Positions 178 through 43,682 of a stretch of DNA of 49,388 nucleotides are shown here, in pieces. Where the stretch lies: contig JAZDOR010000010.1 in NCBI GenBank assembly GCA_043798435.1, positions 1 through 49,388 on the forward strand, read 5' to 3'. The position numbers were made by a program, and so were the translations under genes. This DNA comes from a bacterium (lineage in GTDB: Bacteria > UBA9089 > UBA9088 > JAGUXG01). The notes under the pieces are model-generated. The model saw only the letters and a program-made list of their open reading frames with translations. It was not told the origin of the DNA and did not search any database. The first letter of the stretch is position 1. Every line of letters begins with the position of its first letter.

Positions 178-3100
178 TTACAACAAATGAATCTCCATAT
201 GATACTCCTGAATGGGTTTTACCTCTATCTTTCCATTTATCAAGGCTGATATGCCATCGGCTGAGGCTAATGCCCCGGGGATGGTAGTGATAATAGGAAT
301 ATTATAGGCATAGGCAGTTGTTCTTATCTTCACCTCATCCTGCCTTGGTCTCTTTCCAGAGGGTGTGTTTATGACTAAGGCTATCTGGCCATTCTTCATC
401 TCGTCTATAATGTCAGGTCTCCCCTCCCCTAAGCGAAATACATTTTCACAAGCAATCCCATGTGACTTGAGAAATTTTGATGTTCCGGTAGTGCCAACTA
501 TAGCAAAACCCATATCAAAAAATTTCTTTGCTACAGGCAACACCTTCTCCTTTTCTCTATCTGTCACGCTGATAAAGACGCTTCCCTTCTTTGGCAGGAT
601 TTGTCCCGCTGCCATCTGTGCCTTAGCAAAAGCCATCCCAAAACTTGAGTCTATGCCCATAACCTCGCCAGTTGACCTCATCTCAGGGCCAAGTATAGTA
701 TCTACCCCTGAAAATCTTGTCCAGGGAAAGACAACCTCTTTGACACAAGCTATGTTTGGTATTATCTCACGAGTGAAGCCAAGATCCTTGAGCTTCTTCC
801 CGATCATTACCTTTGTTGCCAGCCTTGCCAAGGATACACCAATAGCCTTTGAGACAAAGGGTATTGTTCGTGATGCCCTTGGGTTTACCTCCAGGACATA
901 GACCTCATCATCTTTGATGGCATACTGAATATTTATCAAGCCAATCACACCAAGCTCTTTGGCTAAGGAATATGTGTTCTGCCTGATCTTTTCAAGGATA
1001 CCCGCAGAAAGTGTATGTGTTGGAAGGACACAGGCAGAATCACCTGAGTGAACACCTGCATACTCAATATGCTCCATAATCCCACCCAAGACAGTCGTCT
1101 CTCCATCTGAAATGGCATCCGCATCAATCTCAATAGCATCCTCAAGGAATTTATCCACAAGGACAGGATGAGAAGGAGAGGCCTCAACCGCCTCCCGCAT
1201 ATATTTCTCCAAATCTTCTTCATCATAGACAATTTCCATTGCCCGTCCACCTAAAACATAGGAAGGACGCATCAAAACCGGATAGCCTATTTCTTCGGCA
1301 ATCTTTTTTGCCTCTTGTGGGGATGTGCCTGTATCATTAGGGGTTTGCTTGAGCCCGATTTTTTGCAGTAGCTCCTTAAAGCGTTTGCGGTCTTCTGCCC
1401 TGTCTATGGAATCAGTTGAAGTGCCGAGAATTTTCACCCCTGCCTTCTCTAATTGAAGAGCCAGATTTAATGGTGTCTGTCCCCCAAGCTGGATAATCAC
1501 ACCCTCTGGTTTTTCTTTGTCTATAATATTCAGGATGTCTTCCAGAGTCATTGGTTCAAAGTAGAGCTTGTCTGATGTATCATAATCCGTGGAGACTGTC
1601 TCAGGGTTGCAGTTTATCATAATGGATTCAACCCCCTCTTCTTTCAAGGCAAAGGATGCCTGACAGCAACAGTAGTCAAACTCTATGCCCTGGCCTATTC
1701 TGTTTGGTCCACCACCCAGAATGATTACCTTCTTTCTATTGGATGGAGTTGTCTCATCCTCTTCTTCATAAGTAGAGTAATAATAAGGCGTGGTTGATTC
1801 AAACTCTGCCGCACAGGTATCCACTAACTTAAAGACAGGCTCTATGCCCTTGCCTTTTCTGAAACTACGAATAGACATCTCATCTGAGTCTAACAAATAC
1901 GCCAACTGCCTATCGCTAAACCCATATTGCTTAGCCTTTCGCAGTAGTTCACTTGAGATTCGGGGTTCGGGGTTCGGGGATCGGGGATCGGGGATCGGGG
2001 ATCGGGGATCGGGGTTCGGGGATCGGGGATCGGGGGTCAAGGTTCCAGGTTCCAGGTTCAAGGTTCCAGGTTCCAGGTTCAAGGTTATAGGTTCCAGATT
2101 CAAGGTTATAGGTTCCAGGTTCAAGGTTCCAGGTTCAAGGGTCAAGGTTATAGGTTCTAGGGTCAAGGTTCTATGTTCTAAGTTTAAGGTTCTATGTTCT
2201 ATGTTCAAGGTTCTATGTTCTAAGTTTAAGGTTCTATGTTCAAGGTTCAAGGTTCTGTATTCTGGATTCTGAATTCTGAATTCTGAATTCTGGATTCTGT
2301 CTTCTGTCTTCTGAATTCTGGATTCTTCCTCCTGACTCCTGTCTTCTGTATTCTGTATTCTGTATTCTGGATTCTGAATTCTTCCTCCTGACTCCTGTCT
2401 TCTGTATTCTGTATTCTGGATTCTGAATTCTGGATTCTGAATTCTTTCTCCTGACACCTGACCCCTGACCCCTGACCCCTGACCCCTGATCTCTTCCTCC
2501 ATCTCCACAATCTGCCTGATATTCTCCAAAAACCACCTATCTATCTTAGTCAACTGATATATCTCTTCTATTCCCATCCCCATCTTAATCGCCTCTCTGA
2601 TATAAAAAATCCTCTCAGAATTTGGCACAACCAACTTTTCTTTAATCCTCTCTTCTGTATTCTGTATTCTGTATTCTGTATTCTGTATCCTATCCTTTCC
2701 ATCCCCACCAAGCCCTGCTCTACCTATCTCCAAAGACCTCAATCCTTTCTGTAAAGCCTCCTTGAATGTCCTGCCAATAGCCATTGCCTCGCCCACAGAT
2801 TTCATTGAGGTTGTAAGCACATCCGTAGCTTGAGCAAACTTTTCAAAGGTAAACCTGGGAATCTTGATGACGCAGTAATCAATGGTCGGCTCAAATGAGG
2901 CTGGGGTTTTTTTGGTAATATCATTGGGAATCTCATCAAGGGTATAGCCAACAGCCAGCTTTGCCGCAATTTTAGCAATTGGAAAACCAGTAGCCTTTGA
3001 GGCAAGGGCAGAGCTTCTTGATACCCTTGGGTTTATCTCAATCACCACCATCCGACCGTCCTCAGGATTTATAGCAAACTGAACATTTGAGCCGCCTGTC

Positions 3101-3933
3101 TGGACGCCAATCTCACGGATGACAGCAATCGCTGCATCCCTCATCTTCTGGTATTCTTTGTCTGTAAGGGTCTGAGCAGGGGCAACGGTGATGGAATCCC
3201 CTGTATGAACACCCATCGGATCAAGATTTTCTATAGAGCAGATGATGACCACATTATCCTTGACATCACGCATTACCTCAAGTTCATACTCCTTCCAGCC
3301 AAGAACAGATTCTTCAATCAGGATTTCACCAATCATACTTGCCTCTATTCCGGATTGAGAAAACCCGACAAACTCCTCTTTATTAAAGGCAATCCCTCCA
3401 CCTGTTCCACCAAGGGTGAAGCTCGGTCGTATAACCAGAGGAAACCCCAATTCTTCTGCTACTTTCCAGGCATCTTCCATAGTGTATGCCAGCCCACTCC
3501 TTGGCACATCCAAGCCAATCTTCTCCATAGCCTCCTTGAACTGCTTTCTATCCTCTGCCTTTTTGATAGCAGCATAATCCGCACCAATCATTTCAACGCC
3601 AAACCTCTCTAAGATACCCATTTCCGCCACCTTCACCGCCACATTAAGTCCGGTCTGCCCCCCTAAGGTCGGCAGGATGGCATCAGGACGCTCTTTCTCA
3701 ATAATCTTGGCTACAATCTCAGGGGTAACAGGCTCAATATATATTCGGTCTGCTGTCTGTGGATCAGTCATAATCGTAGCAGGGTTTGAATTTATCAGGA
3801 CGACAGAGTACCCCTCTTCCTTCAGAGCCTTGCAAGCCTGAGTGCCTGAGTAGTCAAACTCACAGCCCTGGCCGATGATAATAGGCCCTGCACCTATGAT
3901 TAAAATTTTGTGCAAATCTCGTCGTTTTGGCAT
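178..3933 (-). CDS. carB: Carbamoyl-phosphate synthase large subunit carrying a ~175-aa low-complexity insertion
   Basis: 1251-aa ORF with two ATP-grasp halves ([19 protein letters not shown]; [19 protein letters not shown]) and an MGS-like C-terminus. It is about 180 aa longer than typical CarB because of the repeat-encoded segment at 1961-2499. Confidence 0.95.
1961..2499. repeat. 77 consecutive phase-locked heptanucleotide words inside carB
   Basis: Counted by hand with no indel in the 7-nt register. Word blocks: CGGGGWT x11 (1961-2037), CMAGGTT/ATAGGTT/CTATGTT types (2038-2254), CTGNATT/CTGTCTT/CTGACTC types (2255-2457), CTGACCC (2458-2492). Confidence 0.95.
2648..2689. repeat. Second, short heptamer tract (CTGTATT x5-6) inside carB
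   Basis: ctctctt ctgtatt x4 ctgtatc, translated in frame as [15 protein letters not shown] in a variable linker of the CarB oligomerisation domain. Confidence 0.9.
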
Positions 3934-4174: not shown

Positions 4175-4498
4175 TTATTTGACACTACCATAAAAGCCCA
4201 TCCGTCTACACGGTTTTTCAGGTGGTATCATAAGTTGACGAATTACCTCAAAGATTGTCTGAATTTCTTCATCGTGTTTTTCAATCTTTCTTTCAAGTTC
4301 AGTTAACTTATATGCCAGTTCTTTATGCGTTGAAAGGATTTCTCTAAGTTTTACAAATGTCCGCATAATCGCAACATTAACTATAATAGCCCTTTCGCTA
4401 TTAAGAATACTTGAAAGCATGGCTACTCCTTGCTCTGTAAATGCATAAGGTAAATAACGACGACCACCCCAACTTGAGGTGCCAAATTGGCACCTCAA
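4175..4498 (-). pseudogene. ORF6N-domain protein, C-terminal fragment (N-terminal half missing)
   Basis: Contains [31 protein letters not shown], the conserved core of ORF6N/KilA-N-like proteins. The frame opens only about 8 codons upstream and has no ATG. Confidence 0.55.
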
Positions 4499-4573
4499 GA
4501 AATCCTTATATTCTTTTAGGTTCTTTGACTCATCTTACCTTAATCTCCAAATTCTCTTCTATCTCCCCTTCAA

Positions 4574-4780
4574 TCAATCTCGGCAAAAGCATAGCACGGG
4601 TTTGGCGGAAGGTCTGGTTTCATCAGTAATATCCGTTGGAGCAATAAAAGGGAATTCATCACCGAAATATTCTTTAATTGCTGTTGGTGGAGTTTTATCG
4701 GTAACTACTCGACCAATTTCCTTAATCTTTTTTGTTTCCCACCTATTTTCCATAGCACTTTTCCTCATCTCATCCACCAC
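4574..4780 (-). pseudogene. Type I restriction specificity subunit (HsdS) N-terminal fragment
   Basis: W-E-x-KKIKEIGRVVTDKTPPT...FPFIAPTDI matches the start of an HsdS target-recognition domain. The ORF ends after 68 aa. Confidence 0.5.
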
Positions 4781-4786
4781 AATAAT

Positions 4787-5809
4787 TTAGTTTTCCTCAT
4801 ACCCTTCAGGTTCAGGCAAGGGTAGGGAATGCAACTTTTGTTTAAGCAATTTTTGGTCAATAATTTTTGTTTTATAGCTGGCTATCTTCATTGGTGAGAC
4901 TGTTTTGCTCATTGCTATTCGCACAACTTCTTCATCCTTTGACTTACAGAGGATTAGACCTACAGATGGATTTTCATCATTTAGCTTCAGTTTCTCATCG
5001 ATTGCAGCTAAATAAAACTGCATCTTGCCAACATATTCGGGTTTAAACTTTCCAATCTTCAATTCTACTGCTATAAGACACTTCAAGACTCTATGATAAA
5101 ACAACAAATCTACTTTATAGTCCTCGTTTCCAACAGTTACCTTATATTCATCTCCTACCAGTGTAAAATATCTACCAAATTCAAGGAAGAACTGTTTTAA
5201 GTTTCCTACAATTGACTTACGCAAATCTTTTTCTGAAAAATCATCCTTTAATCCAAGAAAGTCAAATATATACTCATCCTTAAAATGTGCCAGGATATTC
5301 TTTTCTTTGGTATAAGGGATTAATTTATCTGCCTTTTTTGAGAGCATAAATCGTTCGTATAAAGAAGAATCAATCTGTCTCTCAAGTTCCCTCTTACTCC
5401 AATTTTCACTTATGCAGGTTTTTAAGTAAAACTCTTTTTCTTCGATGGTTTCTGTATGATGCAATATCATTAAGTTCTGTGTCCACGACAATTCTCTCAC
5501 CAGTGGTGAGAGTTTTTCGTTGTTTTTATAAGTTTCGTAAAATTGTTTCATCCGCCATAAATTTTGAACAGAAAATCCCTTCATATCAGGGAATTCTCGC
5601 TGTAAATCTATAGATAACCTCTCTACAACACCTTCACCCCAATCAGAAATCTCTACCTTCTCATAAATACCTTTACCTATATGAAGATACAATTCAACTA
5701 ATTGCTTATTAACTGTTTGATAGGCCTTTTGGCGAGCAGAGATAATCTCTGCCTTCAATTTGCCAACAAATTCTCTGTATTCATCAGATTTTACAATATC
5801 TCTTCTCAT
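4787..5809 (-). CDS. DUF1016 / YhcG-family PD-(D/E)XK nuclease-like protein
   Basis: 340 aa. The N-terminus (ARQKAYQTVNKQLVELYLHIGKGI, LSWTQNLMIL) and the C-terminal DLLFYH...IAVELK core are typical of DUF1016 proteins embedded in type I R-M loci. Confidence 0.75.
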   Translation of the reverse strand: MRRDIVKSDEYREFVGKLKAEIISARQKAYQTVNKQLVELYLHIGKGIYEKVEISDWGEGVVERLSIDLQREFPDMKGFSVQNLWRMKQFYETYKNNEKLSPLVRELSWTQNLMILHHTETIEEKEFYLKTCISENWSKRELERQIDSSLYERFMLSKKADKLIPYTKEKNILAHFKDEYIFDFLGLKDDFSEKDLRKSIVGNLKQFFLEFGRYFTLVGDEYKVTVGNEDYKVDLLFYHRVLKCLIAVELKIGKFKPEYVGKMQFYLAAIDEKLKLNDENPSVGLILCKSKDEEVVRIAMSKTVSPMKIASYKTKIIDQKLLKQKLHSLPLPEPEGYEEN

Positions 5810-5846
5810 TACCCAACCTCTGTTTCAACCATTTTTTAATATTTCC

Positions 5847-5990
5847 CTATTGAAACTTAGAATCAGCAAAACGCAAGAATATCAATCCCAAAACCGGCTC
5901 GGCGTAATCTGAAGCCTTTAATTTAGAATTAGCCCGCAGATTATCCGCCGCATCCCACAATCTTTGTTCCAAAGACCTTTCTTTTTTCAA
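5847..5990 (-). pseudogene. Type I R-M methylase (HsdM) N-terminal fragment, 47 codons
   Basis: My translation is (M)[46 protein letters not shown], which fits the HsdM_N motif. It starts 1 nt into the carA stop codon. Confidence 0.6.
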
Positions 5991-7080
5991 GCCAAAACCT
6001 CCTTTCTTCTTTTTATCATCTCAGTAAATTCGTTGAATAGATAGCTGGCATCGTGTGGTCCCGGGGATGCCTCCGGGTGGTATTGGACAGAGAAGATAGG
6101 CAGGCTTTTGTGCCTCATTCCCTCAAGGGTCTGGTCATTTAGGTTGATGTGGGTTATCTCTATATCATCAGGCAGAGATTCAATATCCACACAGAAGCCG
6201 TGGTTTTGAGAGGTGATGTCAATCTTTCCTGTTTTCAGGTCTTTGACAGGCTGATTTCCTCCCCTGTGGCCAAACTTGAGCTTGTAGGTTTTTCCACCAA
6301 GGGCTAAACCTAAAATCTGATGCCCCAAACATATCCCGAAGATTGGTAAGCCTGTGCGAATAAGCCTTCTTACTGTATCTATAGCATTTAGAACACCTGC
6401 AGGGTCTCCTGGGCCATTAGAAAGAAAGATACCGTCTGGATTTAGGGCAAGAATTTCATCAGAGGATGTGCTTGCCGGGACTATCGTGACATTACACCCT
6501 GCATCTGTTAGCATTCTGAGAATGTTATATTTTATCCCAAAGTCTATTGCTACTACCTTGAATCGGTAATCGGTAATCGGTAATCGGTAATTTCTTTGCA
6601 GGTTACTTCCTTGACTAAGTCTCTGCCGACTAATCCAGGAGAGGCTTTTGCTTTTGCCACAAGGCTTTCTGGGTCTAAGTCCAATGTTGAGATGACTGCC
6701 TTCATTGCCCCTTGGGTTCTTATATGCTTGGTCAATGCCCTGGTGTCTGTGCCTTCTATACCGATGATATTATGCTCTTTCAGGTAATCAGGAAGGCTCT
6801 TCTTTGCCCTCCAATTACTGTAAATTCTGCTGTATTCTTTAACCACAAACCCTTCAACCTGCGGTCTTTCCGACTCAATATCCTCGTCGTTCACACCATA
6901 ATTTCCTATCAAGGGATAGGTCATGGTTACAATCTGACCTTTGTATGATGGGTCTGTCAGGATCTCCTGATAGCCGCTCATGCTGGTGTTAAAGACTATC
7001 TCACCAGACTTCTCACCGCTTGCACCAAACCCCTCACCCTCAAACCACCTTCCATCCTCTAAGGCAATGATTGTTTTCAT
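5987..7080 (-). pseudogene. carA: Carbamoyl-phosphate synthase small subunit, reading frame broken inside a heptamer repeat
   Basis: ORF 6553-7080 is the CarA N-domain ([24 protein letters not shown]). The downstream frame reads [22 protein letters not shown]...ICLGHQ (GATase domain). The two frames are offset by 1 nt across 6561-6591. Confidence 0.85.
6561..6591. repeat. (AATCGGT)4 heptamer tandem repeat at the carA frame break
   Basis: aatcggt x4 plus aat. The same word builds the hairpin at 36653-36713. Confidence 0.95.
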
Positions 7081-7236
7081 CAGGTTAAAATTTTTGTAAC
7101 CGCAAAGTTCGCTAAGAATTATAATTAATTTACTACTCTTTTTACCCCTTACTTTAATTAGTAGAAAAATGAACCTATCCCTTTTTCTCTTTATTTCCTG
7201 ATAACTATTGACCAGTAACTAATGACTATCTGTCTA

Positions 7237-7364
7237 ATCCCCTTTTCATTGGGTCGGCTTCAATCTCGAATCTCGAATTGCGAATCTCGAATCTATCTAT
7301 TTCCTATCTTCAGATCCGCAATCCGCGATCCGCAATTCCCGATTTAAACATCCCCTTTTCATTG
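7237..7364. repeat. 19-mer direct repeat pair flanking a heptamer-word segment
   Basis: atccccttttcattgggtc at 7237-7255 and atccccttttcattg at 7350-7364. The segment between them is made of gaatctc and gatccgc words. Confidence 0.85.
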
Positions 7365-7449
7365 TCTTCTCGTGGTTCAACTACCCTCTGGCAAGCCTCT
7401 ATTTTCAAAGAGCTAAGACACCCTTTTCCGTATGGGTCTGATTTTGGCC

Positions 7450-7683
7450 TTATATTAACCCTATTTTTTCCCATATCCCTTTCTTCTCTTGCCTCACCTT
7501 TTTAATCAACTCAATTACCTCTTTCCTGCTCATTGCCTCGGTCTTCTGCTCTAATTCTGCTACAGAGTTACCCTTGTTTAGACCTATCATCTGGAAAAAC
7601 TTGATTGCCTTTATGGGACCTAAGTTCTCATATAAGGTTTCCACCCCTTCCTCTAAAATCTCTTCAGCAATCATTGCATTCAT
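7450..7683 (-). CDS. Small protein immediately downstream of the PIN gene (possible cognate antitoxin)
   Basis: 77 aa. Its start abuts the PIN stop (7683/7684). I recognise no motif with confidence. Confidence 0.45.
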   Translation of the reverse strand: MNAMIAEEILEEGVETLYENLGPIKAIKFFQMIGLNKGNSVAELEQKTEAMSRKEVIELIKKVRQEKKGIWEKIGLI

Positions 7684-8151
7684 TTACTCCACCTCCATCT
7701 CTTCTAAAAAATTCACTGGATTTCTTATCTTGATACTATACCCTAATTTATGTAAATTAGCCTCAAATACTGAAGCATTTTTAGTCAGTTCGTCATCGCA
7801 GGTGAGAAGAAATGTGCAACTTTGCAATGAAGCCGCTATATGTAAAGCATCCATGAAATCCTTCAATTTACAGGCAGATTTAACATCATCCGCCAGCTTT
7901 ATGAGCTGATCATCAACCTGGATTAGTTCAATAGCACTACTATTTATCAGAGATTCAACCTGCTCTTTCTTCTCTATATCTTCAATCAGTGAGACTTCGG
8001 CTATTGCTGCCTCAGAGGTGATTATCTTCAAGAGACCAGCAGATTTCATCAGAAGAAGCTTATTCAAGGACTCAGCCTCATCAAGTATTCTCTCCTGTCT
8101 CAAATCGTCAAATGGTCTACACCATACATTAGTATCCAGATATACCTTCAT
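7684..8151 (-). CDS. PIN-domain protein (VapC-like toxin)
   Basis: MKVYLDTNV N-terminal acidic residue, then SEAAIAEV, DALHIA and LLTCDD acidic positions in PIN spacing. Confidence 0.7.
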   Translation of the reverse strand: MKVYLDTNVWCRPFDDLRQERILDEAESLNKLLLMKSAGLLKIITSEAAIAEVSLIEDIEKKEQVESLINSSAIELIQVDDQLIKLADDVKSACKLKDFMDALHIAASLQSCTFLLTCDDELTKNASVFEANLHKLGYSIKIRNPVNFLEEMEVE

Positions 8152-8190
8152 CTTCCCTACCTATTATAAACCATCTGCCTAACTATCGCA

Positions 8191-8319
8191 ATCCCCTTTT
8201 CATTGGGTCAAAATACAATGTTCAATTATCAATCTTCAATTATCAATTCCCTCCATCTCTTAATTGATCATTGATAATTGTTAATTGATAATTCTCCTTC
8301 ATCCCCTTTTCATTGGGTC
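8191..8319. repeat. Second 19-mer direct repeat pair flanking a CAATTAT-word hairpin
   Basis: atccccttttcattgggtc at 8191-8209 and 8301-8319, both exact. The inner arms caattatcaatcttcaattatcaatt and aattgatcattgataattgttaattgataatt are largely complementary. Confidence 0.9.
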
Positions 8320-8471
8320 AGTGTTTCAACTCCTCTTCTATATACTGTAATACATCTTCTATGCTCAACTTAGGAGTTGGCTCTATCTTTTCTTCAACAT
8401 GCTTGTGATGAAGAAAGGTTTTAATCTCTTTGTAATCTGGGAAACTATCTTGCTCTGCCTGAGAAGGTCTA

Positions 8472-8771
8472 TTATCCCATACATTCTTTCAACCCCGCAT
8501 ATCTCTCTTTCCATCCACAGTATGCCTGATGGAGACCTTCCCATATAATAAAGTTGTCCCATTCTTCAAAGTTTTCCTCTTTTGCCTTCTTTATCTTCTC
8601 CTCAAATCTTTCATAAGGCATCCCATACTTCTTCTCAAAGGAAAGCATCCTGCTTCGATAATACTCCATCTTTGTGGATGCCTCAAAGAGTAGAGAGCGA
8701 ACGATATCAGTTCCTCCTTTCTCTTCTTTTACCCACCTGGGCACTTGAATTTCCATAGTTACTGTTTCCAT
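8472..8771 (-). CDS. Hypothetical small protein
   Basis: 99-aa ORF, charged and helical-looking (FEKKYGMPYERFEEKIKK). No confident family assignment. Confidence 0.4.
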   Translation of the reverse strand: METVTMEIQVPRWVKEEKGGTDIVRSLLFEASTKMEYYRSRMLSFEKKYGMPYERFEEKIKKAKEENFEEWDNFIIWEGLHQAYCGWKERYAGLKECMG

Positions 8772-8839
8772 CTTACTTTATTCCTCCTGTTCTTACTATA
8801 CCCAAACAAATCAGGTTTGCAAAAATTGTGTTCGTTTAT

Positions 8840-8919
8840 GGTTCTGAGGTTCACGGTTCAAGGTTAAAGAATAAGAAGATTAACCGTGAATCTTGAACCC
8901 TTTAACCCCTGAACCTGAG
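8840..8919. repeat. Heptamer-word inverted repeat (GGTTCAA/GGTTCTG words)
   Basis: ggttctgaggttcacggttcaaggttaaag ... ttaaccgtgaatcttgaaccctttaacccctgaacctgag. Same word family as carB block 2 and as 47779-47865. Confidence 0.8.
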
Positions 8920-9275
8920 TAGTTACTTTTTTGTAAACCAATTTCTTTTCGGTATATTATCCACTTTACACCCTCCTTGATATCTTCACCAATCTTTTTT
9001 CCTAAGGCATTTATAGGATAATGGACATTTTCTCCATTTCTGAGACAGAATTATGGCTCCGGTTGATGGCTATACGAGTTGACGAAGAATATCTTCTCTT
9101 CTTTGGGTTCAAACTCTCCAAAAGAGAAGAATGCCTGGGGAGGAGAAAGAAAGGCTTAACAGAACATTTCCTATCACAGCTTAGATGAATCTTTCGTATC
9201 TTGCAGGAATTCTTCTCTGTCTCTAATTGGGTCAATTACCTAAACTCTATCTCCATCTCCTTTTCTTGCACTACC

Positions 9276-11093
9276 CTACCTTTTTGCTTTGGCAGAACGC
9301 TTTCTATCGTTTTCGTCCAGAAGCCGCTTTCGGAGTCGGATAGAGAGGGGGGTGACCTCAACAAGTTCATCATCTGAGATAAACTCTATTGCCTGCTCAA
9401 GGGAGAGCGAGCGTGGAGGGGTGAGCTGAATATTTTCATCGCTGCTTGCGGCACGCATATTGGTCAGCTTCTTTGATTTAAGAGGGTTGACCACAAGGTC
9501 ATTCTCCCGTGAATGCTCTCCAATAATCATTCCACCGTAACATTTTACCCCTGGTCCGATAAAGAGCACCCCTCGCTCCTGAAGATTGAAGAGGCCATAA
9601 GCCACAGCGATACCCTGTTCCATTGCCAGCAAAACTCCTCGAGAGCGAGTCAGAATCTCGCCCTTGTATGGGCCGTAGCAATCAAAGACATGATGGAGAA
9701 CACCAGTTCCTCTTGTTTCAATAATAAGCTCAGACTGGAGACCAAACAGACCGCGGGAGGGGATTCTGTATTCAAACCTGGCTCTGCCATCCCTGCCGAT
9801 ATGATGATGGAGAATCTCACCCTTTCGCCTGCCAAGTTTTTCAATCACTATGCCCTGATAAACTTCCTCCACATCCACTGTTAAGAGCTCATATGGTTCA
9901 AGCCTCTCACCATTGATTTTTTTGAGAATTACATGCGGCTTAGAGACAGCGAGCTCATAGCCCTCCCTTCTCATATTTTCAATCAGTATAGAAAGGTGCA
10001 GCTCACCTCGTCCGGATACCTTAAAGATACCATTTTCCATCTCCTCAACCCGCAGGCTGACATTTGTTCTAATCTCCCGAAAGAGTCGTTCACGAAGATG
10101 ACGGCTGGTGAGATATTGCCCTTCAGTTCCAGCAAGCGGTGAGTTATTCACCATAAATTCCATTGTCATAGTTGGCTCACCGATATCTATCGGTGGAAGT
10201 GGCTGAGGATTCTCTAAATCAGCTATAGTTTCGCCAATCTCTATTCCCTCCAGACCCGCGATTGCCACTACATCACCCGCCTCTGCAGAATTAATATCTG
10301 TCCGCTCAAGCCCGTAGAATCCATACAGCTTTGTTACCTTGCCTTTTTCAATACTGCCGTCCCGCTTGATACGAACTATGGGGTTTCCGATATTCAGGAT
10401 ACCGTTTTCAATCTTTCCTATAGCTATACGACCCACATAGTTATCGTAGTCAAGCGTAGTCACTAACATTTGCAAGGGGAGACGAGAAGATCCAGATGGA
10501 GGGGGAATATGGGTTAAAATCATCTCAAAAAGTGGACTGAGGTTTTTCCCTGGGGTCTTGATGTTGCACATCGCATAGCCTTCCTTAGCTGAGGCATAAA
10601 TGATGGGAAAGTCAAGTTGCGTATCATTGGCACAAAGTTGAGCAAAGAGATCAAAGGTTTCCGACACGACCTCGTCAGGCCGAGCCTCCAGGCGATCTAC
10701 CTTGTTTATCACCACAATCGGACAGAAGCCAAGCTGAAGCGATTTAGCCAGGACAAATTTAGTCTGTGGCATCGGCCCATCCACAGCATCCACAAGAAGC
10801 AGAACCCCGTCAACCATCTTGAGAATCCGTTCCACCTCTCCGCTGAAATCCGCATGGCCTGGCGTGTCAACGATGTTTATTTTATGCCCCTGATAATGGA
10901 TAGCGGTATTTTTCGCCAGGATAGTAATCCCGCGTTCCCGTTCAAGATCATTAGAATCCATCACCCGCTCACAAACAGTCTGATGCTCACCAAAGGTGCC
11001 GCTCTGGCGAAGCAAGCCATCCACAAGCGTGGTCTTTCCATGATCTACATGCGAAATGATAGCGATGTTACGAATTTTTTTCTGAGTGCTCAT
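9276..11093 (-). CDS. typA: Translational GTPase TypA/BipA
   Basis: [27 protein letters not shown] and NKVDR G-motifs; EF-G-like domains; C-terminal [20 protein letters not shown]. The start is set at the internal ATG (11093) in front of the G1 motif. Confidence 0.93.
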
Positions 11094-11221
11094 GTTTATT
11101 TGTAATAGTTTTTCTTCTTGCAAGTCAATATCAATATAGCATCTTTGAGAGGATATATCAAGAAAAATCAACTCTTCTCCAAAATATTGACAAAGACAAA
11201 CCTTCCTAATATAATTGAGGC

Positions 11222-12808
11222 GTGAAGAGTAAGAAAGGTGTTAGAAAAAGATGGCTTCTTCCTTTATCATATATAACAGTTCTTTTAGGAGCATGCTTCT
11301 TTTCTCTGTTTCTCTTTTATTTCTACTGCCTCAACATCCCTCTTGCCACGCTTACAATCTCTACTATTACTATCTTCTCCTTCCTCTGGATAGGATTCTC
11401 CTGGTTGTTGGTTCGCTTCAGATTGACCAAAGACAGACTGAAAGAGGTTTTGATAAATAATGGCGTTAGCTATATTGTCTTCCTTCCTTTGTTGACCATC
11501 TTTTTGAAAGATATGGGTTTTTATAACCCCAATATCTGGCATGCCTTTCTGTTCATCATAGTCTTTGGTCTCTTTTTCTTTCTGAAGATGAGGCTCATTG
11601 ACTGGCAAGCAGAGAGAAAGATGTTTCCTATGAAATCCTCCATTATCCCTTTGGCTATATTGTCCTTCTTTATTCTATTTTATATCGCGGTATTTACTCT
11701 GCTCAATTTCTTGAGATATGATTGGCTGATGACTACCACTGACCTTGGTGCATGGAACCAGATATTCTGGAACACTATCAGAGGCAGGATTCTCCATTCA
11801 ACCTGGTATGGTCATAACTTTCTTGGAGAGCATATGTCTCCTATTCTTATACTTATTGCTCCTATCTATAGCCTGTGGCAAGACCCAAGAATGCTCTTAT
11901 TCTTCCAAACCTTCTTTACTGGTATTGCTGCTATTCCTATCTATCTGATAGCTTACCATAAGCTAAAAGACAGATTCCTTTCCTTAGTCTTTGCCTGTTG
12001 TTGGCTCCTCCATCCATTCCTCTCCCGGATAAATCTTTGTGGCTTCTATGAGGTCTCTTTGGCTCCATTTTTGCTCTCTCTTACCTTCCTTGCCTTAATC
12101 AAACAAAGGATTAAAACCTATTTTCTTCTTGCCTTCCTCTGTCTGATGATAAAAGAGGAGATGTCGCTCTTGATGGCATTCTTTGGGGTTTATATATTCC
12201 TTAGACATAATAAGAAGATAGGAATTATTACCATAGCAACAGCCCTTTTATGGGGGCTTATATCCCTTAAGTTACTCACACCAAACATCTCACCTGTATT
12301 AGGAGAAAAGGCAACATATCAACATATTGAAAGATACAGACACCTTGGAAAAAACCTTTCTGAGATAGCAGGGAATATCCTTTTTCATCCTATAGCTATT
12401 GGAAAGATTATTTTGGCTCCAGAAAAGATAATTACCATTATCCTCCTATTCCTTCCCTTTGGTTTTTTCTCCCTCTTTTCTCTCTCCTTTCTTCCCGGCA
12501 TGCCCATCCTTTTAATGCACCTTATTGCCTACTTTCCCATTCAATATAACCTTTTCTGGCACTACTCTGCCCCAATCCTACCATTTATGGCTATCTCTGC
12601 TATCTATGGATTTGCAAATATAGTAGAGAGACTCAAAAGATATAAAGTAGCGATTCCCCTTTCCATCTCTATCCTCATAATTTCCCTCTTCTCTAACCTG
12701 TATTTCAATAGATTTAGCTTCTCCTATAAACCCTTTCCTGAGAACCCAGAAAATTACAAGCCCGACATCCAGAGAACCTTTCTCTCTACCCCAGGGTATA
12801 TAGTATGA
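11222..12808 (+). CDS. Polytopic membrane protein, DUF2079-like
   Basis: About 14 hydrophobic segments. DLGAWNQIFWNT...GEHMSPILILIAPIYSLW resembles the DUF2079 core. Confidence 0.6.
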   Translation: MKSKKGVRKRWLLPLSYITVLLGACFFSLFLFYFYCLNIPLATLTISTITIFSFLWIGFSWLLVRFRLTKDRLKEVLINNGVSYIVFLPLLTIFLKDMGFYNPNIWHAFLFIIVFGLFFFLKMRLIDWQAERKMFPMKSSIIPLAILSFFILFYIAVFTLLNFLRYDWLMTTTDLGAWNQIFWNTIRGRILHSTWYGHNFLGEHMSPILILIAPIYSLWQDPRMLLFFQTFFTGIAAIPIYLIAYHKLKDRFLSLVFACCWLLHPFLSRINLCGFYEVSLAPFLLSLTFLALIKQRIKTYFLLAFLCLMIKEEMSLLMAFFGVYIFLRHNKKIGIITIATALLWGLISLKLLTPNISPVLGEKATYQHIERYRHLGKNLSEIAGNILFHPIAIGKIILAPEKIITIILLFLPFGFFSLFSLSFLPGMPILLMHLIAYFPIQYNLFWHYSAPILPFMAISAIYGFANIVERLKRYKVAIPLSISILIISLFSNLYFNRFSFSYKPFPENPENYKPDIQRTFLSTPGYIV

Positions 12809-13671
12809 GCGTAAAAGAGCGAGAAAGAATTAAGCTCTTCCATCTCTTAAAAGAGCTTATCCCAAGGGATGCAAGGGTTTCCTGTGGCGAATCCTGGGCA
12901 AGCCATCTTTCCAAAAGAAAGGACTTCTTTGAGTTTATAGAGGCAGGCGCACATTGGGATAAAGCCGATTATCTTCTTTTAGACTTATCAAGGAGGACAC
13001 CTGCTTTTGATCGTCTGCTTGGGTATCTTGATAATTTTGAGAAAGAAGGGAATTTCCGCAAGGTATTTGAAGAGACAGAGAACAATGACTTTACAATATG
13101 GGTAAGAAAAGGAAAAGAAGAAGAGATTCTTGAGGCTGCAAAGAGATTACTGAAAGAGAGACCAGATTCTCCTCATACCCACTTTATCCTCTCATCAATC
13201 TATTACCATCTTGGAAATTTGAAAGATAGCCAGAAAGAGGCAGAAAAGACAATAAGCCTTGACCCTAACTATTACAACCCGATGATCTATATCATACTTG
13301 GCGATACCTCCCTTTCATTAAAAGAGCAGGATAAAGCCTATCTTGCCTACAAGAAAGCAGCAAATATTGAGCCACTTAGGGTTTTGAATCTATTAAAAAT
13401 CAAAGAATTCTATGCCAGTCAAGGCTTATCTCAGAAGGTCAAAATAGTAGATATGGATATTGAGAGGATACTACTTGACTTTAGAAATAAAGCAGAAAAG
13501 AACCCTAAAGATATATGGCCAAAGAAGCAATTAGCCTTTATCTATGCCAACATTGGCCAATATAGAGAAGCTGTTGCTTTGCTAAAAGAGATTCTCTTAA
13601 TTGAGCCAAATGACCCTTGGTCAAGGCAGCTATTTATGCAACTGAAAGATTTTTCTGTTATACCAAAATAG
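12805..13671 (+). CDS. TPR-repeat protein
   Basis: ATGA overlap with the upstream membrane protein. TPR-like units are present (SIYYHLGNLKDSQKEAEKTISLDPN; AFIYANIGQYREAVALLKEILLIEPND). Confidence 0.6.
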   Translation: MSVKERERIKLFHLLKELIPRDARVSCGESWASHLSKRKDFFEFIEAGAHWDKADYLLLDLSRRTPAFDRLLGYLDNFEKEGNFRKVFEETENNDFTIWVRKGKEEEILEAAKRLLKERPDSPHTHFILSSIYYHLGNLKDSQKEAEKTISLDPNYYNPMIYIILGDTSLSLKEQDKAYLAYKKAANIEPLRVLNLLKIKEFYASQGLSQKVKIVDMDIERILLDFRNKAEKNPKDIWPKKQLAFIYANIGQYREAVALLKEILLIEPNDPWSRQLFMQLKDFSVIPK

Positions 13672-24099: not shown

Positions 24100-24243
24100 G
24101 TTTTAACCTCCTTATTTAGTGTATTTAACGATAGAGTTCAGCGGCGGCGTTTACGCCATCCGCTACAACAATTTATTAGGCTTTTAATAGGTAACTGTCC
24201 CTTTTTTATTGTCAACATTTCTTTTGCAATTGACTGAATTTAT

Positions 24244-24520
24244 TGAAGTTATGTAAACTGTTTACTTGCTTTCGTTGTTTACTTGCTTTCGTTTTGAAGT
24301 TATGTAAACTGTTTACTTGCTTTCGTTTACTTGCTTTCGCTTTCTTTACTTGCTTTCGCTTTCGTAAACTGTTTACTTGCTTTCGTTTTTATGTAAACTG
24401 TTTACTTGCTTTTATACTTGCTTTTACTTGCTTTCGTTTACTTGCTTTCTATTTACTTGCTTTCTACTTGCTTTCGTTTACTTGCTTTCTTGAAGTTATG
24501 TAAACTGTTTACTTGCTTTC
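24244..24520. repeat. Irregular array of 14 ACTTGCTTT cores with a 30-nt higher-order unit
   Basis: Cores start at 24264, 24281, 24315, 24329, 24348, 24375, 24404, 24416, 24426, 24440, 24455, 24466, 24480 and 24511. tgaagttatgtaaactgtttacttgctttc recurs at 24244, 24295 and 24490, with a partial copy near 24390. Confidence 0.9.
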
Positions 24521-24535
24521 TTCCCTGTTTATGAA

Positions 24536-31636: not shown

Positions 31637-31783
31637 AGTAACCACAAAGGACGCAAAGTAAATCGCAAAGGACACAAAGAGAAAGAATTATGACAGAAAA
31701 CGAAATAGCTAATAAAGCAATTGGTACTCGTAAATTAATTCTTAGCGAACTTTGCGTAATTCTTTGCGTTCTTTGCGGTAAAG
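31637..31783. repeat. CAAAG-word inverted repeat enclosing a 5-prime remnant of a GxxExxY-type gene
   Basis: Arms are taaccacaaaggacgcaaagtaaatcgcaaaggacacaaagag and cttagcgaactttgcgtaattctttgcgttctttgcggtaaag. Between them, ATG 31690 (+) opens MTENEIANKAIG..., which then runs into the repeat. A shortened copy of the right arm lies at 7098-7135. Confidence 0.6.
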
Positions 31784-36637: not shown

Positions 36638-36652
36638 TCTTTCACCTCCTTT

Positions 36653-36713
36653 AATCAGGTAATCGGTAACCGGTAATCAGGTAACCGATAACCGATTACC
36701 CGATTACCGATTT
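36653..36713. repeat. CGGTAAT-word hairpin between mvhD and the protease gene
   Basis: aatcagg taatcgg taaccgg taatcag gtaaccg ataaccg attaccc gattacc gattt. The left and right words are complementary. Same word as the carA tract. Confidence 0.85.
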
Positions 36714-37381: not shown

Positions 37382-38548
37382 TTATCTACTGTAGATTCCT
37401 TTGTCAACAAGGAAGGTTATTGCCTTTGCCAGATATGAGCTTTTGAGCAGGATTGCCCCTTGTGGGCATAGCTCCTGACAGCAGTAGCAGCGGATACATT
37501 TAGCATCATTTATCTTTGCTTTTGCATCCTTTAGCATAAACGGAGTTCGGGATTCAGTTGAATGCTTTGTGCCTTTGTGCCTTTGTGCCTTTGTGCCTTC
37601 CATTATTTTTATAGCTTCTCTTGGACAGGTCTTTTCACAAACCCCACAGCCAATGCAGACCAGAGAGACAAAAGGCTTTGCTGTAAAGAAAGGCTTCAGG
37701 TATCTCCCAAATCTTCCCCAGGGGGCAACACCTTGTGGCAGTCGAAGGGGAGGGGATATAGGCACAACCTCATCACCAAGCCACTCACACCCATCAAATT
37801 TTGCTCTCTCTGAAAGACCAGGGACTATCTCAGGCTTCCATCCAATCAATCTGCAAGCTGCAAGGTCAGCTAAGATAGGATTATCGCTCACGATTATCCA
37901 GCCTATATCTCTAAGAATGCCTCCAGATGGACCATTTCCCTCCATGCCAACGATTCCATCCACTATAGTCAGCTTTGGCTGGACAACATCTGCAAGAGAA
38001 AAAAGCATACTTGCAAAATCCCCTATCTTTGGTAATGTTGAATGATACCCCAGCTTATCAAAGCCAGGGATAAGACCAAAGAGGTTCTTTACGCCGCAGC
38101 TTAAAATGGTGTATGAATGGGTCTTCAGCTTTGGGATATTGACTACAGAATCTACATCACTTATAAGATTTATCAGCCTGAATCCCTTGCCATCTCTAAA
38201 AAAGCTCTTATATCCCGTGTCATAATTCAGATTGACTCCCAAACCTTCCATCTGGGTGATTCGGTAGAGTTTCTTGAGGGATTCTTTTGTGTAAGGGATT
38301 GCCATGCCAAGGCTATCAGCAAGATGGGGTCTGCCCCCGTTAGAATTAATCAAGTCAGATACAGCTTTGACCACGGCAGGATGTGTGGTTATTCCCTTCT
38401 CTGGAGGGTAGTAACCAAGAAGGTTTGGTTTGAGAAGAGTCTTTCCCTTTAGAGCATCTATTCCGCCTATAAGCTCTATCCCTCTCTTTACTGCCGCAAA
38501 TACCTTCTCCTCATTATAACTATTACACCTTATAGTCGCAACCTTCAT
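37382..38548 (-). CDS. DUF362-domain protein with a C-terminal 2x[4Fe-4S] ferredoxin domain
   Basis: N-terminal MKVATIRCNSY..LLKPNL and TH..T.L..GVKN are DUF362-like. The clusters CIGCGVCEKTCP and CIRCYCCQELCP are separated by an atypically long repeat-encoded linker. Confidence 0.75.
   Translation of the reverse strand: MKVATIRCNSYNEEKVFAAVKRGIELIGGIDALKGKTLLKPNLLGYYPPEKGITTHPAVVKAVSDLINSNGGRPHLADSLGMAIPYTKESLKKLYRITQMEGLGVNLNYDTGYKSFFRDGKGFRLINLISDVDSVVNIPKLKTHSYTILSCGVKNLFGLIPGFDKLGYHSTLPKIGDFASMLFSLADVVQPKLTIVDGIVGMEGNGPSGGILRDIGWIIVSDNPILADLAACRLIGWKPEIVPGLSERAKFDGCEWLGDEVVPISPPLRLPQGVAPWGRFGRYLKPFFTAKPFVSLVCIGCGVCEKTCPREAIKIMEGTKAQRHKGTKHSTESRTPFMLKDAKAKINDAKCIRCYCCQELCPQGAILLKSSYLAKAITFLVDKGIYSR
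37563..37597. repeat. Octamer tandem repeat (GCCTTTGT x4) inside the ferredoxin domain
   Basis: tgctttgt gcctttgt gcctttgt gcctttgt gcc, translated as KAQRHKGTKHS. Same CACAAAGG words as the intergenic arms at 48875-48941. Confidence 0.9.
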
Positions 38549-42464: not shown

Positions 42465-43265
42465 TTAGCGTGTTTCGTAGTCTCCTTTTGCAGCGACCAG
42501 GACTTCTTCCTGTATCTTCTGAAGCTGGGATGAAATGGTAGCATCTATTATCCCAAACCCTGTCTGAACCTTGCATCCACCCTGTTCAATGGAAGGGTCT
42601 TCTCTAATATCTATCCTTTTGCCTCCTGAACTCTTCAAAATCCTTTCCTTCCATTCTGAAGCCACCTCAAAATCAGCAAGATTTACTAAGACCGTTATAC
42701 TTTCCTCGGAAAGCCCCCTTTTTATCGCCATCTCTATGTTGGACAAGACAACCTTTTTATTGCCTTTTATCTCCTCCTTTATTATCTTTTCAGCAATCAT
42801 TATGGCCAGCCCAACTACAACCTCCGCCTCTGCCTTCTTTGTTGCCTCTTCATATACCTTGGATAATGAGGAGAGCGTATTAGTAAAACCAGTAATAAGC
42901 CTGTTCGCCTCTATCTCTCCCTTTCTCTTTCCATCCGCCCTTCCCTCATCAAACCCTTTTTTGAAGGCTGAATCAGTTATCTCGGAAACCTTCTTCTTTG
43001 CCTCTTCTTCTGCCTTCCTGATTATATCTTCACACCTCTTTTCCGCTTCCTTTCTTACATAGCCTTCTACATCAGAAAGCACCCTGCTCCTTTCTTCTAT
43101 CTGATTATTTATCTCTAAAAGCCCTTGTTCTGCTACCCGTATCTTATTTTCAAGCCTCTCAATCAGATTCCGTCCTTCTCCTAAACCAGAAAATGCCTTT
43201 GGGTCTATGACTACATCCGAACTTAGAACAGGCTGCTTATAAACGCTATTCAATGATTGACTCAC
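42465..43265 (-). CDS. fliH: Flagellar assembly protein FliH-like
   Basis: Lies downstream of fliG. Long charged coiled coil, then KKGFDEGRADGKRKG and LAIMIAEKIIKEEI. GTG start inside repeat unit A. Confidence 0.65.
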   Translation of the reverse strand: MSQSLNSVYKQPVLSSDVVIDPKAFSGLGEGRNLIERLENKIRVAEQGLLEINNQIEERSRVLSDVEGYVRKEAEKRCEDIIRKAEEEAKKKVSEITDSAFKKGFDEGRADGKRKGEIEANRLITGFTNTLSSLSKVYEEATKKAEAEVVVGLAIMIAEKIIKEEIKGNKKVVLSNIEMAIKRGLSEESITVLVNLADFEVASEWKERILKSSGGKRIDIREDPSIEQGGCKVQTGFGIIDATISSQLQKIQEEVLVAAKGDYETR

Positions 43266-43682
43266 CTCCTTTCCAGTAGCGACTAATCATAATCTCGTCC
43301 TGTTCCTCTAATTGCCTAACCACAACTATTATCTTCTGTTGAGCCTCTTCTACTTCGGAGAGTCTCATCGGTCCAAGGCAGGAAATCTCCTTATTCAATG
43401 ATTGACTCACCCCCTTTGCCACCCCGACTAATCATAATCTCACCCTGCTCTTCTAATTGTCGCACTACAACTATTATCTTCTGTTGAGCCTCTTCTACTT
43501 CGGAGAGTCTCATCGGTCCAAGGCAGGAAATCTCCTTATTCAATGATTGACTCACCCCCTTTTCCACCCCGACTGATCATAATCTCACCCTGCTCCTCTA
43601 ATTGCCTAACCACAACTATTATCTTCTGTTGAGCCTCTTCTACCTCGGAGAGTCTCATCGGTCCAAGATAGGAAATCTCCTC
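43246..43682. repeat. Tandem triplication (3 x 145 bp) of the fliG 3-prime end / fliH start junction
   Basis: The anchor attcaatgattgactcac occurs at 43248, 43393 and 43538. The units are more than 90% identical by eye. Confidence 0.95.

What the first reader, a model, noticed from the sequence alone, without database searches (positions are those of the whole stretch)
6553..6595. carA reading frame is broken exactly within a (CGGTAAT)4 heptamer repeat; one unit more or two fewer restores it
The CarA N-domain frame ends ...[17 protein letters not shown] at 6553. The GATase domain ([23 protein letters not shown]...) is in the frame offset by one nt and is open right through the repeat ([14 protein letters not shown]). 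The only thing between the two conserved halves is aatcggt x4 (6561-6591), inserted in the natural interdomain linker. Because 7 = 1 mod 3, five or two copies would give one continuous CarA. Three readings are possible. (a) It is a repeat-number error of assembly or sequencing. (b) It is slipped-strand ON/OFF switching of an arginine/pyrimidine biosynthesis gene. (c) Ribosomal frameshifting occurs on the repeat. The downstream ATG-initiated ORF lacks the first beta-strand of the GATase fold, so a naturally split gene is unlikely.
Basis: partly seen in the sequence, partly recalled or inferred. Interest (0 to 1): 0.65.

Follow-up and report, generated by a model that had tools for sequence, protein, structure and literature searches.

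The report
One-unit repeat slip breaks carA
An arginine/pyrimidine gene (carA) of an uncultivated groundwater-type bacterium is knocked out of frame because a 7-base repeat that forms its interdomain linker has four copies instead of the five seen in two sibling strains. This is an ordinary slippage event, or less likely an assembly miscount, in a lineage that unusually builds protein loops from such repeats.

Summary
carA lies on the minus strand. Its N-domain ORF (6553-7080) and its GATase frame (5987-6562) are separated only by a perfect (ATTACCG)4.4 array at 6561-6591. Two or five units restore one ORF.

Two independent sibling assemblies (95.9% and 98.9% nucleotide identity) both carry five units and an intact carA. 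The window is therefore exactly one unit short.

The array is not an oddity of this gene:
- Relatives (Desantisbacteria-like) build the same linker, and a second GATase loop, from stop-free heptamer arrays with various units.
- The window's intact carB carries about 170 residues of in-frame heptamer arrays.
- Period-7 arrays dominate the window's perfect tandem repeats of three or more units.

The broken carA shows no decay: it departs from 2 of 190 conserved columns, against a family median of 4. There is no slippery site and no RNA structure, and no ATG, GTG or TTG start lies ahead of the first GATase strand.

The best reading is a recent, in-principle reversible, one-unit slipped-strand contraction giving a null allele, probably incidental. 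An assembly or consensus miscount remains a serious rival (about 0.3) and cannot be excluded without reads. Programmed frameshifting and a functional split gene are unsupported.

The parts
6561..6591 (-). Perfect heptanucleotide array (ATTACCG)4.4, which is AATCGGT on the + strand. It is stop-free in all three frames of the coding strand and forms the CarA interdomain linker. It is one unit shorter than in two sibling assemblies.
   Evidence: Siblings with 38 nt.
6553..7080 (-). carA N-terminal domain ORF (175 aa). It runs through the array in the wrong frame and stops at TAG 6553-6555.
   Evidence: TIGR01368 model positions 2-165.
5987..6562 (-). carA class I glutamine amidotransferase domain, in the -1 frame relative to the N-domain. 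The frame is open back to 6769. The first ATG/GTG/TTG is at 6514, downstream of strand beta1 (FKVVAIDFG). The catalytic Cys (GICLGHQ) and His-Pro-Glu motifs are present.
6330..6385 (-). Second heptamer site of carA, the loop before [11 protein letters not shown]. It is array-free in the window (IRTGLPIFG). The sibling L001 has (ACCGATT)4.4 here, 18 nt more, and many relatives have related units. It lies in the centre of a patch of clustered substitutions (codons 233-260).
178..3933 (-). carB, intact, 1251 aa. It carries in-frame heptamer arrays in two loops of the oligomerisation domain.
1960..2489 (-). Composite block of four heptamer arrays inside carB (+ strand units TCGGGGA x10.9, TCAAGGT x31, TTCTGTA x27.6, CCTGACC x5.7). 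It encodes about 170 extra residues with 7-residue periodicity (RIQNxEx, RTLNLEH, LEPxTLN, PDPRSPN).
2653..2688 (-). Perfect (TTCTGTA)5.1 array inside carB, encoding [13 protein letters not shown].
36652..36712 (.). Intergenic array of the related unit GGTAAYC/ACCGATT, the same unit family as the carA array. It shows that this unit is dispersed in the genome.

Best explanation
The break is a one-unit contraction (5.4 to 4.4 units, -7 nt) of a heptanucleotide simple sequence repeat (SSR) that, in this lineage, constitutes the CarA interdomain linker. The most likely cause is slipped-strand mispairing during replication, in the sampled population itself.

Because 7 is not a multiple of 3, the ribosome leaves the array in the wrong frame and stops 6 nt later. 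The GATase domain has no usable start ahead of its first beta-strand. This allele should therefore give no glutamine-dependent small subunit, that is, it is OFF. A +1 or -2 unit slip would restore it.

The array exists because this clade tolerates stop-free heptamer arrays in permissive surface loops of carA (two sites) and carB (two sites). Selection normally keeps the total in frame.

Shown here: the anatomy, the sibling copy numbers, the clade-wide arrays and the absence of decay or recoding signals. Inferred: that the 4-unit state is in the cells rather than in the assembly, that it is null, and that it is an incidental by-product of a hypermutable tract rather than a regulated switch.
For: - **Whole-unit difference.** The only frame-changing difference in carA from sibling L001 (95.9% identity over 7.8 kb) and from L002 (98.9% over 2 kb) is exactly one unit in a perfect array. 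Both siblings read [18 protein letters not shown] in frame.
- **Same design in relatives.** Relatives build the same linker from other heptamers: (AAAATTC)5.9 giving KIQNSKFKIQNSKF, (AAATGCA)n, and VQGSRFKVQGSKF. A second loop holds ATTACCG-like units that differ by 3-unit steps between relatives.
- **Period 7 dominates.** There are 8 perfect arrays of at least 3 units at period 7, against 0-1 for each other period from 4 to 12. In 790 kb of related loci the counts are 52 against 1-9.
- **The assembly handles such arrays.** carB stays open through about 566 nt of arrays. Perfect period-7 tracts of 41, 36 and 33 nt are retained. A simple de Bruijn graph keeps a 41-nt tract only at k of at least 35, and at that k it would not collapse a 38-nt tract to 31 nt.
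- **No decay.** The reconstructed CarA departs from 2 of 190 columns that are at least 90% conserved, against a family median of 4. Outside one patch the differences from L001 are 11 synonymous and 4 non-synonymous codons.
- **The window is not error-ridden.** It is full of long intact ORFs.
Against: - No reads are available, and no other contig carrying the 4-unit allele was found. The allele rests on one assembly.
- Both siblings have five units, and the gene is otherwise flawless with an intact partner carB. That is also what a miscounted repeat in a functional gene would look like.
- A metagenome-assembled consensus from a mixed population may carry a minority allele.
- Loss of carA would make the cell depend on ammonia-driven CarB activity or on external arginine and pyrimidines. 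This is untested.
- A second frame difference from L001 exists nearby (the DUF2079 gene). Occasional indel problems in the window cannot be ruled out.
Confidence: 0.55

Rival explanations
1. This is an assembly, consensus or sequencing artefact. The organism really has five units, as its siblings do, and an intact carA. One unit was lost in assembly, in polishing, or by picking a minority path in a mixed population.
For: Both sibling assemblies have 38 nt. The gene shows no other lesion and no relaxed constraint, and carB is intact. Other split carA genes in public assemblies (L090, L092) look like sequencing errors. They have contig_ names that I take (from memory, not checked) to indicate long-read assemblies, irregular 6-nt units, and in L092 a split carB as well.
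Against: The difference is a clean whole unit in a perfect array, unlike the 1-nt defects in L090 and L092. Longer perfect period-7 tracts (41 and 36 nt) and about 566 nt of arrays in carB are kept and in frame in the same assembly. The window has no other obviously broken gene apart from one complex 2-nt difference that includes substitutions.
Confidence: 0.3
2. This is a true contingency locus. The array is maintained as a reversible ON/OFF switch of glutamine-dependent carbamoyl-phosphate synthesis, producing auxotrophic and prototrophic subpopulations.
For: It is a non-triplet SSR inside the ORF, perfect, with copy number polymorphic between near-identical strains. The gene is undecayed, as expected if OFF states are transient. 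Arrays persist at this linker across the clade. Heptanucleotide SSRs are credited with phase variation in H. influenzae (PMC2651432).
Against: Four to five units is short compared with the 13-38 units of the H. influenzae heptanucleotide tracts. The gene is housekeeping, not a surface or restriction function. The same kind of array also sits in carB, in a ferredoxin-domain protein and in many intergenic sites, which fits genome-wide SSR proliferation tolerated in loops better than a dedicated switch. Only one OFF allele has been seen. Switching rate and within-population heterogeneity are untested.
Confidence: 0.1
3. Recoding restores the protein. A programmed -1 frameshift, or a ribosome hop between identical codons of the repeat (14 nt forward or 7 nt back), makes full-length CarA from the 4-unit mRNA.
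For: The GATase frame is open through the whole array, and identical codons recur every 7 nt, which gives take-off and landing matches.
Against: There is no X_XXY_YYZ slippery heptamer. The 156-nt region folds no better than shuffles (z = 0.28). The frameshifted arrangement is not conserved: the siblings and all close relatives examined are in frame. From general knowledge, transcriptional slippage needs homopolymer runs, not heptamers.
Confidence: 0.03
4. This is a functional two-piece CarA. The N-domain and the GATase domain are made as separate polypeptides that assemble on CarB.
For: The break falls exactly in the interdomain linker, and both domains are intact in sequence.
Against: No ATG, GTG or TTG lies in the GATase frame upstream of 6514. 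The first possible product lacks [16 protein letters not shown], which is beta1 and the start of helix 1, model positions about 166-192. The close relatives found all encode one chain. The split carA genes seen elsewhere (L090, L092) look like sequencing errors.
Confidence: 0.02

Closest known systems
Intragenic heptanucleotide SSR frameshifts in Haemophilus influenzae, for example (AATTTTG)14 inside hmw1A of strain PittAA and (AACAACC)n in an HI1369 homologue (PMC2651432)
   Same: A 7-nt unit lies inside an ORF. Copy number differs between strains. One state is out of frame, and the cause is attributed to slipped-strand mispairing.
   Different: Those tracts are long (8-14 or more units), in surface or uptake genes of a host-adapted pathogen, and near or within variable regions. 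Here there are 4-5 units in a core biosynthetic enzyme of a free-living uncultivated bacterium, and the tract is itself the protein linker.
Dispersed heptanucleotide repeats: cyanobacterial STRR, GGGNATC of Xanthomonas and Nostoc (PMC4692102), TAACTGA of Beggiatoaceae (PMC4679880), and the general excess of heptanucleotide long SSRs reported by Mrazek et al. 2007 (as cited in those two papers)
   Same: There is a genome-wide excess of period-7 tandem arrays. The same unit families recur at several loci. One carB array, (GGGGATC)n on the + strand, fits the GGGNATC type.
   Different: Those families are described as mainly intergenic and under-represented in ORFs. TAACTGA even encodes stops. Here the longest arrays are in-frame inside essential genes and recur at the same protein loops across phyla.
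Classic tetranucleotide or homopolymer contingency loci of Haemophilus, Neisseria and Campylobacter
   Same: The logic is the same: a non-triplet repeat in an ORF, where plus or minus one unit toggles translation.
   Different: Gene class, tract length and ecological setting all differ. No evidence here of high-frequency reversible switching or of selection for switching.
Programmed -1 ribosomal frameshifting, dnaX type
   Same: Two overlapping frames must be joined by a -1 shift.
   Different: There is no slippery site, no stimulatory structure and no conservation of the shifted arrangement.

Membership tests
CarA, glutamine-hydrolysing carbamoyl-phosphate synthase small subunit (TIGR01368 / PF00988 + PF00117) | N-terminal CPSase small-chain domain | tested here: met
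   TIGR01368 model positions 2-165, E = 1.9e-66. It aligns with E. coli CarA 1cs0_B.
CarA, glutamine-hydrolysing carbamoyl-phosphate synthase small subunit (TIGR01368 / PF00988 + PF00117) | Class I GATase domain with the catalytic Cys and the His-x-Glu motif | tested here: met
   GICLGHQ and [11 protein letters not shown] are present, and these columns are invariant in 121 sequences.
CarA, glutamine-hydrolysing carbamoyl-phosphate synthase small subunit (TIGR01368 / PF00988 + PF00117) | Both domains in one continuous reading frame | tested here: not met
   The frames are offset by one nucleotide at the 31-nt array. The frame is continuous in siblings L001 and L002.
CarA, glutamine-hydrolysing carbamoyl-phosphate synthase small subunit (TIGR01368 / PF00988 + PF00117) | Partner carB present | tested here: met
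   carB at 178-3933 on the same strand, intact.
SSR contingency (phase-variable) locus | Tandem repeat with a non-triplet unit inside the ORF or promoter | tested here: met
   (ATTACCG)4.4 inside the ORF.
SSR contingency (phase-variable) locus | Copy number differs between closely related strains by whole units, giving ON and OFF frames | tested here: met
   4.4 units in the window against 5.4 in L001 and L002.
SSR contingency (phase-variable) locus | Heterogeneity within one population and reversible high-frequency switching | not testable with these tools
   No reads are available. Exact-protein and pattern look-ups found no further copies of the locus.
SSR contingency (phase-variable) locus | A tract long enough for high slippage rates, and a gene class under fluctuating selection | tested here: inconclusive
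   Only 4-5 units, in a housekeeping biosynthetic gene. The H. influenzae heptanucleotide tracts have 13-38 units.
Programmed -1 ribosomal frameshift | Slippery X_XXY_YYZ site in the overlap | tested here: not met
   Read directly from the sequence 6553-6625.
Programmed -1 ribosomal frameshift | Downstream stimulatory RNA structure | tested here: not met
   MFE -26 kcal/mol against a shuffle mean of -26.9, z = 0.28.
Programmed -1 ribosomal frameshift | The shifted arrangement is conserved in relatives | tested here: not met
   The siblings and the 32 closest homologues aligned are in frame.
Dispersed heptanucleotide SSRs (STRR-like / long SSRs) | Excess of period-7 arrays over other periods | tested here: met
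   8 perfect arrays of at least 3 units at period 7 against 0-1 for each other period from 4 to 12. In related loci the counts are 52 against 1-9.
Dispersed heptanucleotide SSRs (STRR-like / long SSRs) | The same unit recurs at several unlinked loci | tested here: met
   TTCTGTA-type units at 2344, 2400, 2653 and 38715, and ATTCTGA-type units at 31831, 40392 and 40769. GGTAAYC units at 6561 and 36652.
Dispersed heptanucleotide SSRs (STRR-like / long SSRs) | Predominantly intergenic location | tested here: inconclusive
   Most short arrays are intergenic, but the longest are inside carB. Across all loci held, 42 of 81 arrays lie in long open frames, against 86% of bases; the loci were chosen around carA, which biases this count.

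The most novel reading that the evidence does not exclude
In this uncultivated lineage, non-triplet (7-nt) repeats are a standing source of new protein sequence and of reversible gene inactivation in core metabolism. The carA linker array would then be a real metabolic contingency switch. It would toggle glutamine-dependent carbamoyl-phosphate synthesis, and so arginine and pyrimidine prototrophy, within populations, while sister arrays have grown into a 170-residue insert in carB.
Probability: 0.1. Interest if true: 0.75.

Novelty: new member of a known kind. Interest (0 to 1): 0.45.

Why it matters
Taken alone, this is a repeat-slippage frameshift (or a miscount) in one gene of one metagenome-assembled genome, and it should not be read as loss of the pathway or as recoding.

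The context is the useful part. It shows a clade in which 7-nt repeats, usually described as under-represented in coding sequence, sit in frame inside essential enzymes. They recur at the same surface loops of CarA and CarB across several candidate phyla, encode 7-residue-periodic peptides, and have expanded to about 170 residues in one CarB. Every such tract is one slip away from a null allele.

This matters in three ways:
- for annotation of genomes assembled from metagenomes, where apparent pseudogenes and auxotrophies may be repeat states;
- for estimates of metabolic dependency in groundwater communities;
- as a natural system for studying how simple repeats create protein linkers.

Tried and rejected
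- **Look-ups for the broken allele.** Exact-product look-ups of both carA half-ORFs found no contig on record. A look-up with the neighbouring PIN protein found only the two known siblings plus a 973-bp Logan contig that stops short of carA.
- **Flank-pattern scans.** The metagenome scan found one contig, with five units. The scan of GTDB species genomes found none. The species is not among the GTDB representatives; the best carA match there is 80%.
- **Recurrence of broken carA alleles.** I searched for N-domain-only proteins. The long-contig cases I fetched (L090, L092) are broken by 1-nt irregular units in probable long-read assemblies. P0242 is just a contig end. None gives independent support for whole-unit switching.
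- **Recoding.** No slippery site and no structure.
- **Second carA.** None in the window.
- **carB siblings.** No homologue above 79% identity, so carB array variation could not be measured.
- **Literature.** A search for heptanucleotide repeats read in three frames as heptapeptides returned nothing beyond the Beggiatoaceae paper.
- **Simple de Bruijn collapse (38 to 31 nt).** Considered and judged unlikely, because a 41-nt perfect period-7 tract survives in the same window.

Full report
**1. The observation**

carA lies on the minus strand. ORF 6553..7080 (175 aa) is the CPSase small-chain N-domain and ends ...[20 protein letters not shown]. The frame offset by -1 reads ...[33 protein letters not shown]... 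and is open from 6769 to the stop at 5987. Its first ATG, GTG or TTG is at 6514.

NCBIfam TIGR01368 matches the two ORFs on model positions 2-165 and 193-360. The linker, strand beta1 and the start of helix 1 are therefore encoded only in the stretch that neither product includes.

Between the halves lies a perfect period-7 array at 6561-6591, 4.4 copies, 100% matches. It reads (ATTACCG)n on the coding strand. Its 28-nt core has no chance match in 100 shuffles. Five units give [18 protein letters not shown], and two give [11 protein letters not shown].

**2. Sibling sequences**

The best protein hit, P0001, is 96% identical and reads [18 protein letters not shown]. Its contig L001 (ENA, 10.9 kb) aligns to window 5860-13656 at 95.9% identity and with the same gene order. 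At the array it has exactly 7 more nucleotides.

A flank-pattern scan of the metagenome collection found one further contig, L002 (JGI, 1983 bp, 98.9% identical to window 6407-8382). It also carries five units.

The window is thus one unit short of the in-frame state seen in two independent assemblies of near-identical strains. No other assembly with the 4-unit allele could be found.

**3. The array is a property of the lineage**

The closest CarA proteins, several of them labelled Candidatus Desantisbacteria, have linkers with 7-residue periodicity: KIQNSKFKIQNSKF, KIQNPKFKIQNPKF, VQGSRFKVQGSKF and KIHPSPFALHPSPF. At the DNA level these are heptamer arrays, for example (AAAATTC)5.9 in L003 and L004, and (AAATGCA)n in L091. 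Three units make 21 nt and 7 codons, so each unit is read in all three frames in turn.

A second site, the loop before [11 protein letters not shown], carries ATTACCG-like units in many relatives. Examples are [14 protein letters not shown], and P0018 with 7 residues more, which is a 3-unit step. L001 has (ACCGATT)4.4 there, while the window has none.

More distant CarA proteins have an ordinary KEVTC..PY.W...FKVV linker. E. coli CarA has a linker 13 residues longer than the 5-unit form, so this linker tolerates changes in length.

**4. Genome-wide context and carB**

The window has 8 perfect arrays of at least 3 units at period 7, against 0-1 for every other period from 4 to 12. Related loci show 52 against 1-9 in 790 kb. 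Units recur at unlinked sites: TTCTGTA/TTCTGAA-type at six loci, and GGTAAYC at 6561 and 36652.

The largest arrays, 1960-2489 and 2653-2688, lie inside carB (178-3933, minus strand). carB remains one ORF of 1251 aa. The arrays encode about 170 plus 9 extra residues (RIQNTEY..., RTLNLEH..., LEPITLN..., PDPRSPN...) in two loops of the oligomerisation domain. None of the 120 best CarB homologues (at most 79% identity, 1061-1120 aa) has this insert.

Smaller heptamer arrays sit at the same two CarB loops in loci labelled Nitrospira sp. (L007, the closest carA among the species genomes, 80% identity), Omnitrophota and Binatia.

An in-frame octamer array, (GCACAAAG)4.4, sits inside a DUF362/ferredoxin protein.

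**5. Is carA decaying?**

It is not. The reconstructed protein departs from only 2 of 190 columns that are at least 90% conserved in 121 sequences, against a family median of 4. The catalytic motifs are intact.

Against L001 there are 23 synonymous and 14 non-synonymous codon differences. Twenty-two of these are packed into codons 233-260 around site 2. Elsewhere the count is 11 synonymous to 4 non-synonymous. Any inactivation is therefore very recent, transient or unreal.

**6. Real allele or artefact?**

For a real allele:
- The change is a clean whole unit in a perfect tract, which is the signature of slippage.
- The same assembly keeps perfect period-7 tracts of 41, 36 and 33 nt and keeps carB in frame through about 566 nt of arrays. 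A de Bruijn graph that preserves a 41-nt tract needs k of at least 35, and at that k a 38-nt tract is unambiguous.
- The window is otherwise made of long intact ORFs.
- Other split carA genes in public data (L090, L092) are broken by 1-nt irregular units. They sit on contig_-named, probably long-read assemblies, and L092 has a split carB as well. That is a different kind of lesion.

For an artefact:
- Only one assembly shows four units, and both siblings show five.
- The gene and its partner are flawless.
- A consensus from a mixed population can carry a minority path.
- The window also differs from L001 by a 2-nt indel that splits a DUF2079-TPR gene, and the Pfam match crosses the junction in L001. 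That site also carries several substitutions, so it looks like real divergence.

I put the real allele at about 0.65 in total. Of this, 0.55 is incidental slippage and 0.10 an adaptive switch. The artefact reading stands at about 0.30.

**7. Recoding and a split gene**

The shift needed is -1. There is no X_XXY_YYZ site, and the 156-nt region folds no better than shuffles (z = 0.28). The close relatives examined are in frame. Hopping between identical codons 7 or 14 nt apart is conceivable, but nothing supports it.

A two-piece enzyme would need initiation at CTG or ATT inside the array. The ATG product lacks beta1.

**8. Comparison with known systems**

- Excess heptanucleotide SSRs are known in many bacteria: Mrazek 2007 as cited in PMC4679880 and PMC4692102, STRR in cyanobacteria, GGGNATC in Xanthomonas and Nostoc, and TAACTGA in Beggiatoaceae. 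They are described as mainly intergenic.
- Intragenic heptanucleotide tracts with frame shifts are known in H. influenzae (PMC2651432).

The carA event is therefore a new member of a known kind. What is unusual is the setting: non-triplet repeats forming linkers and large inserts in essential enzymes, recurrently at the same loops.

**9. Verdict**

The mechanism is a one-unit contraction of a lineage-typical heptamer SSR, giving a null but revertible allele. An artefact is not excluded. Programmed frameshifting and a functional split gene are rejected. Interest is moderate and comes mostly from the context.

Noticed in passing
window 178-3933 (arrays 1960-2489 and 2653-2688): carB is 1251 aa, about 175 residues longer than any of its 120 best homologues. 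Four different heptamer arrays, totalling about 566 nt, are embedded in frame in two loops of the oligomerisation domain. Smaller heptamer arrays occupy the same loops in loci labelled Nitrospira sp. (L007), Omnitrophota (L048, L062) and Binatia (L070).
   Followed up: partly
window 6300-6385 (carA codons 233-260): Twenty-two of the 37 codon differences between the window and sibling L001 cluster here, around the second heptamer site. The window lacks that array and has L-N where the family has a nearly invariant P-Y. This looks like a recombination patch or an array-loss scar.
   Followed up: partly
window 12790-12810: A DUF2079-TPR membrane protein is one 717-aa ORF in L001. In the window it is split into two ORFs with an ATGA stop/start overlap, through a 2-nt indel plus substitutions. 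The Pfam DUF2079 match crosses the junction in L001. This is a second frame difference between the two strains within 8 kb.
   Followed up: partly
window 37565-37599: A perfect octamer array, (CTTTGTGC)4.4 on the + strand, lies in frame inside a DUF362/4Fe-4S ferredoxin-domain protein (37382-38548, minus strand). It encodes EGTKAQRHKGTKHSTES between the two cysteine clusters. This is another non-triplet repeat tolerated in a coding region.
   Followed up: partly
window 1960-2035: On the + strand (the non-coding strand of carB) this array reads (GGGGATC)n. That fits the G-quadruplex-forming GGGNATC repeat type described for Xanthomonas and Nostoc (PMC4692102).
   Followed up: no
window 7101-7121 (-) and 31736-31777 (+): An identical 21-nt motif, TAATTCTTAGCGAACTTTGCG, lies about 20 nt upstream of the carA start codon on the coding strand, next to a TATAAT-like box. 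It occurs again, duplicated, at 31.7 kb. Shuffles give zero matches. Its function is unknown.
   Followed up: partly
window 4175-5990: Between carA and carB lies apparently inserted material: a 47-aa ORF (5847-5990) that resembles the N-terminus of HsdM by eye only, with no family match; a YhcG/DUF1016 PDDEXK nuclease gene (4787-5809); and an ORF6N-domain fragment (4175-4498). Similarity to sibling L001 stops at 5860, just downstream of carA.
   Followed up: partly
window 7262-7343 and 8216-8293: Imperfect heptamer arrays in the intergenic regions around the PIN toxin-antitoxin-like genes upstream of carA have the same copy number in the window and in L001. Only the perfect array in carA differs. 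This fits slippage that depends on tract purity.
   Followed up: partly
window 24243-24521 and 43247-43681: Two larger tandem structures are present: a complex array of a GTTTACTTGCTTTC-type 14-nt unit (about 280 nt), and three copies of a 145-nt unit (91% matches). Neither was examined.
   Followed up: no
L026 2571-4204: In a genome labelled Desulfobacteria, the carA match spans 1634 nt for 364 residues and has 7 in-frame stops in a straight translation. This suggests a roughly 540-nt insertion or interruption inside carA.
   Followed up: no
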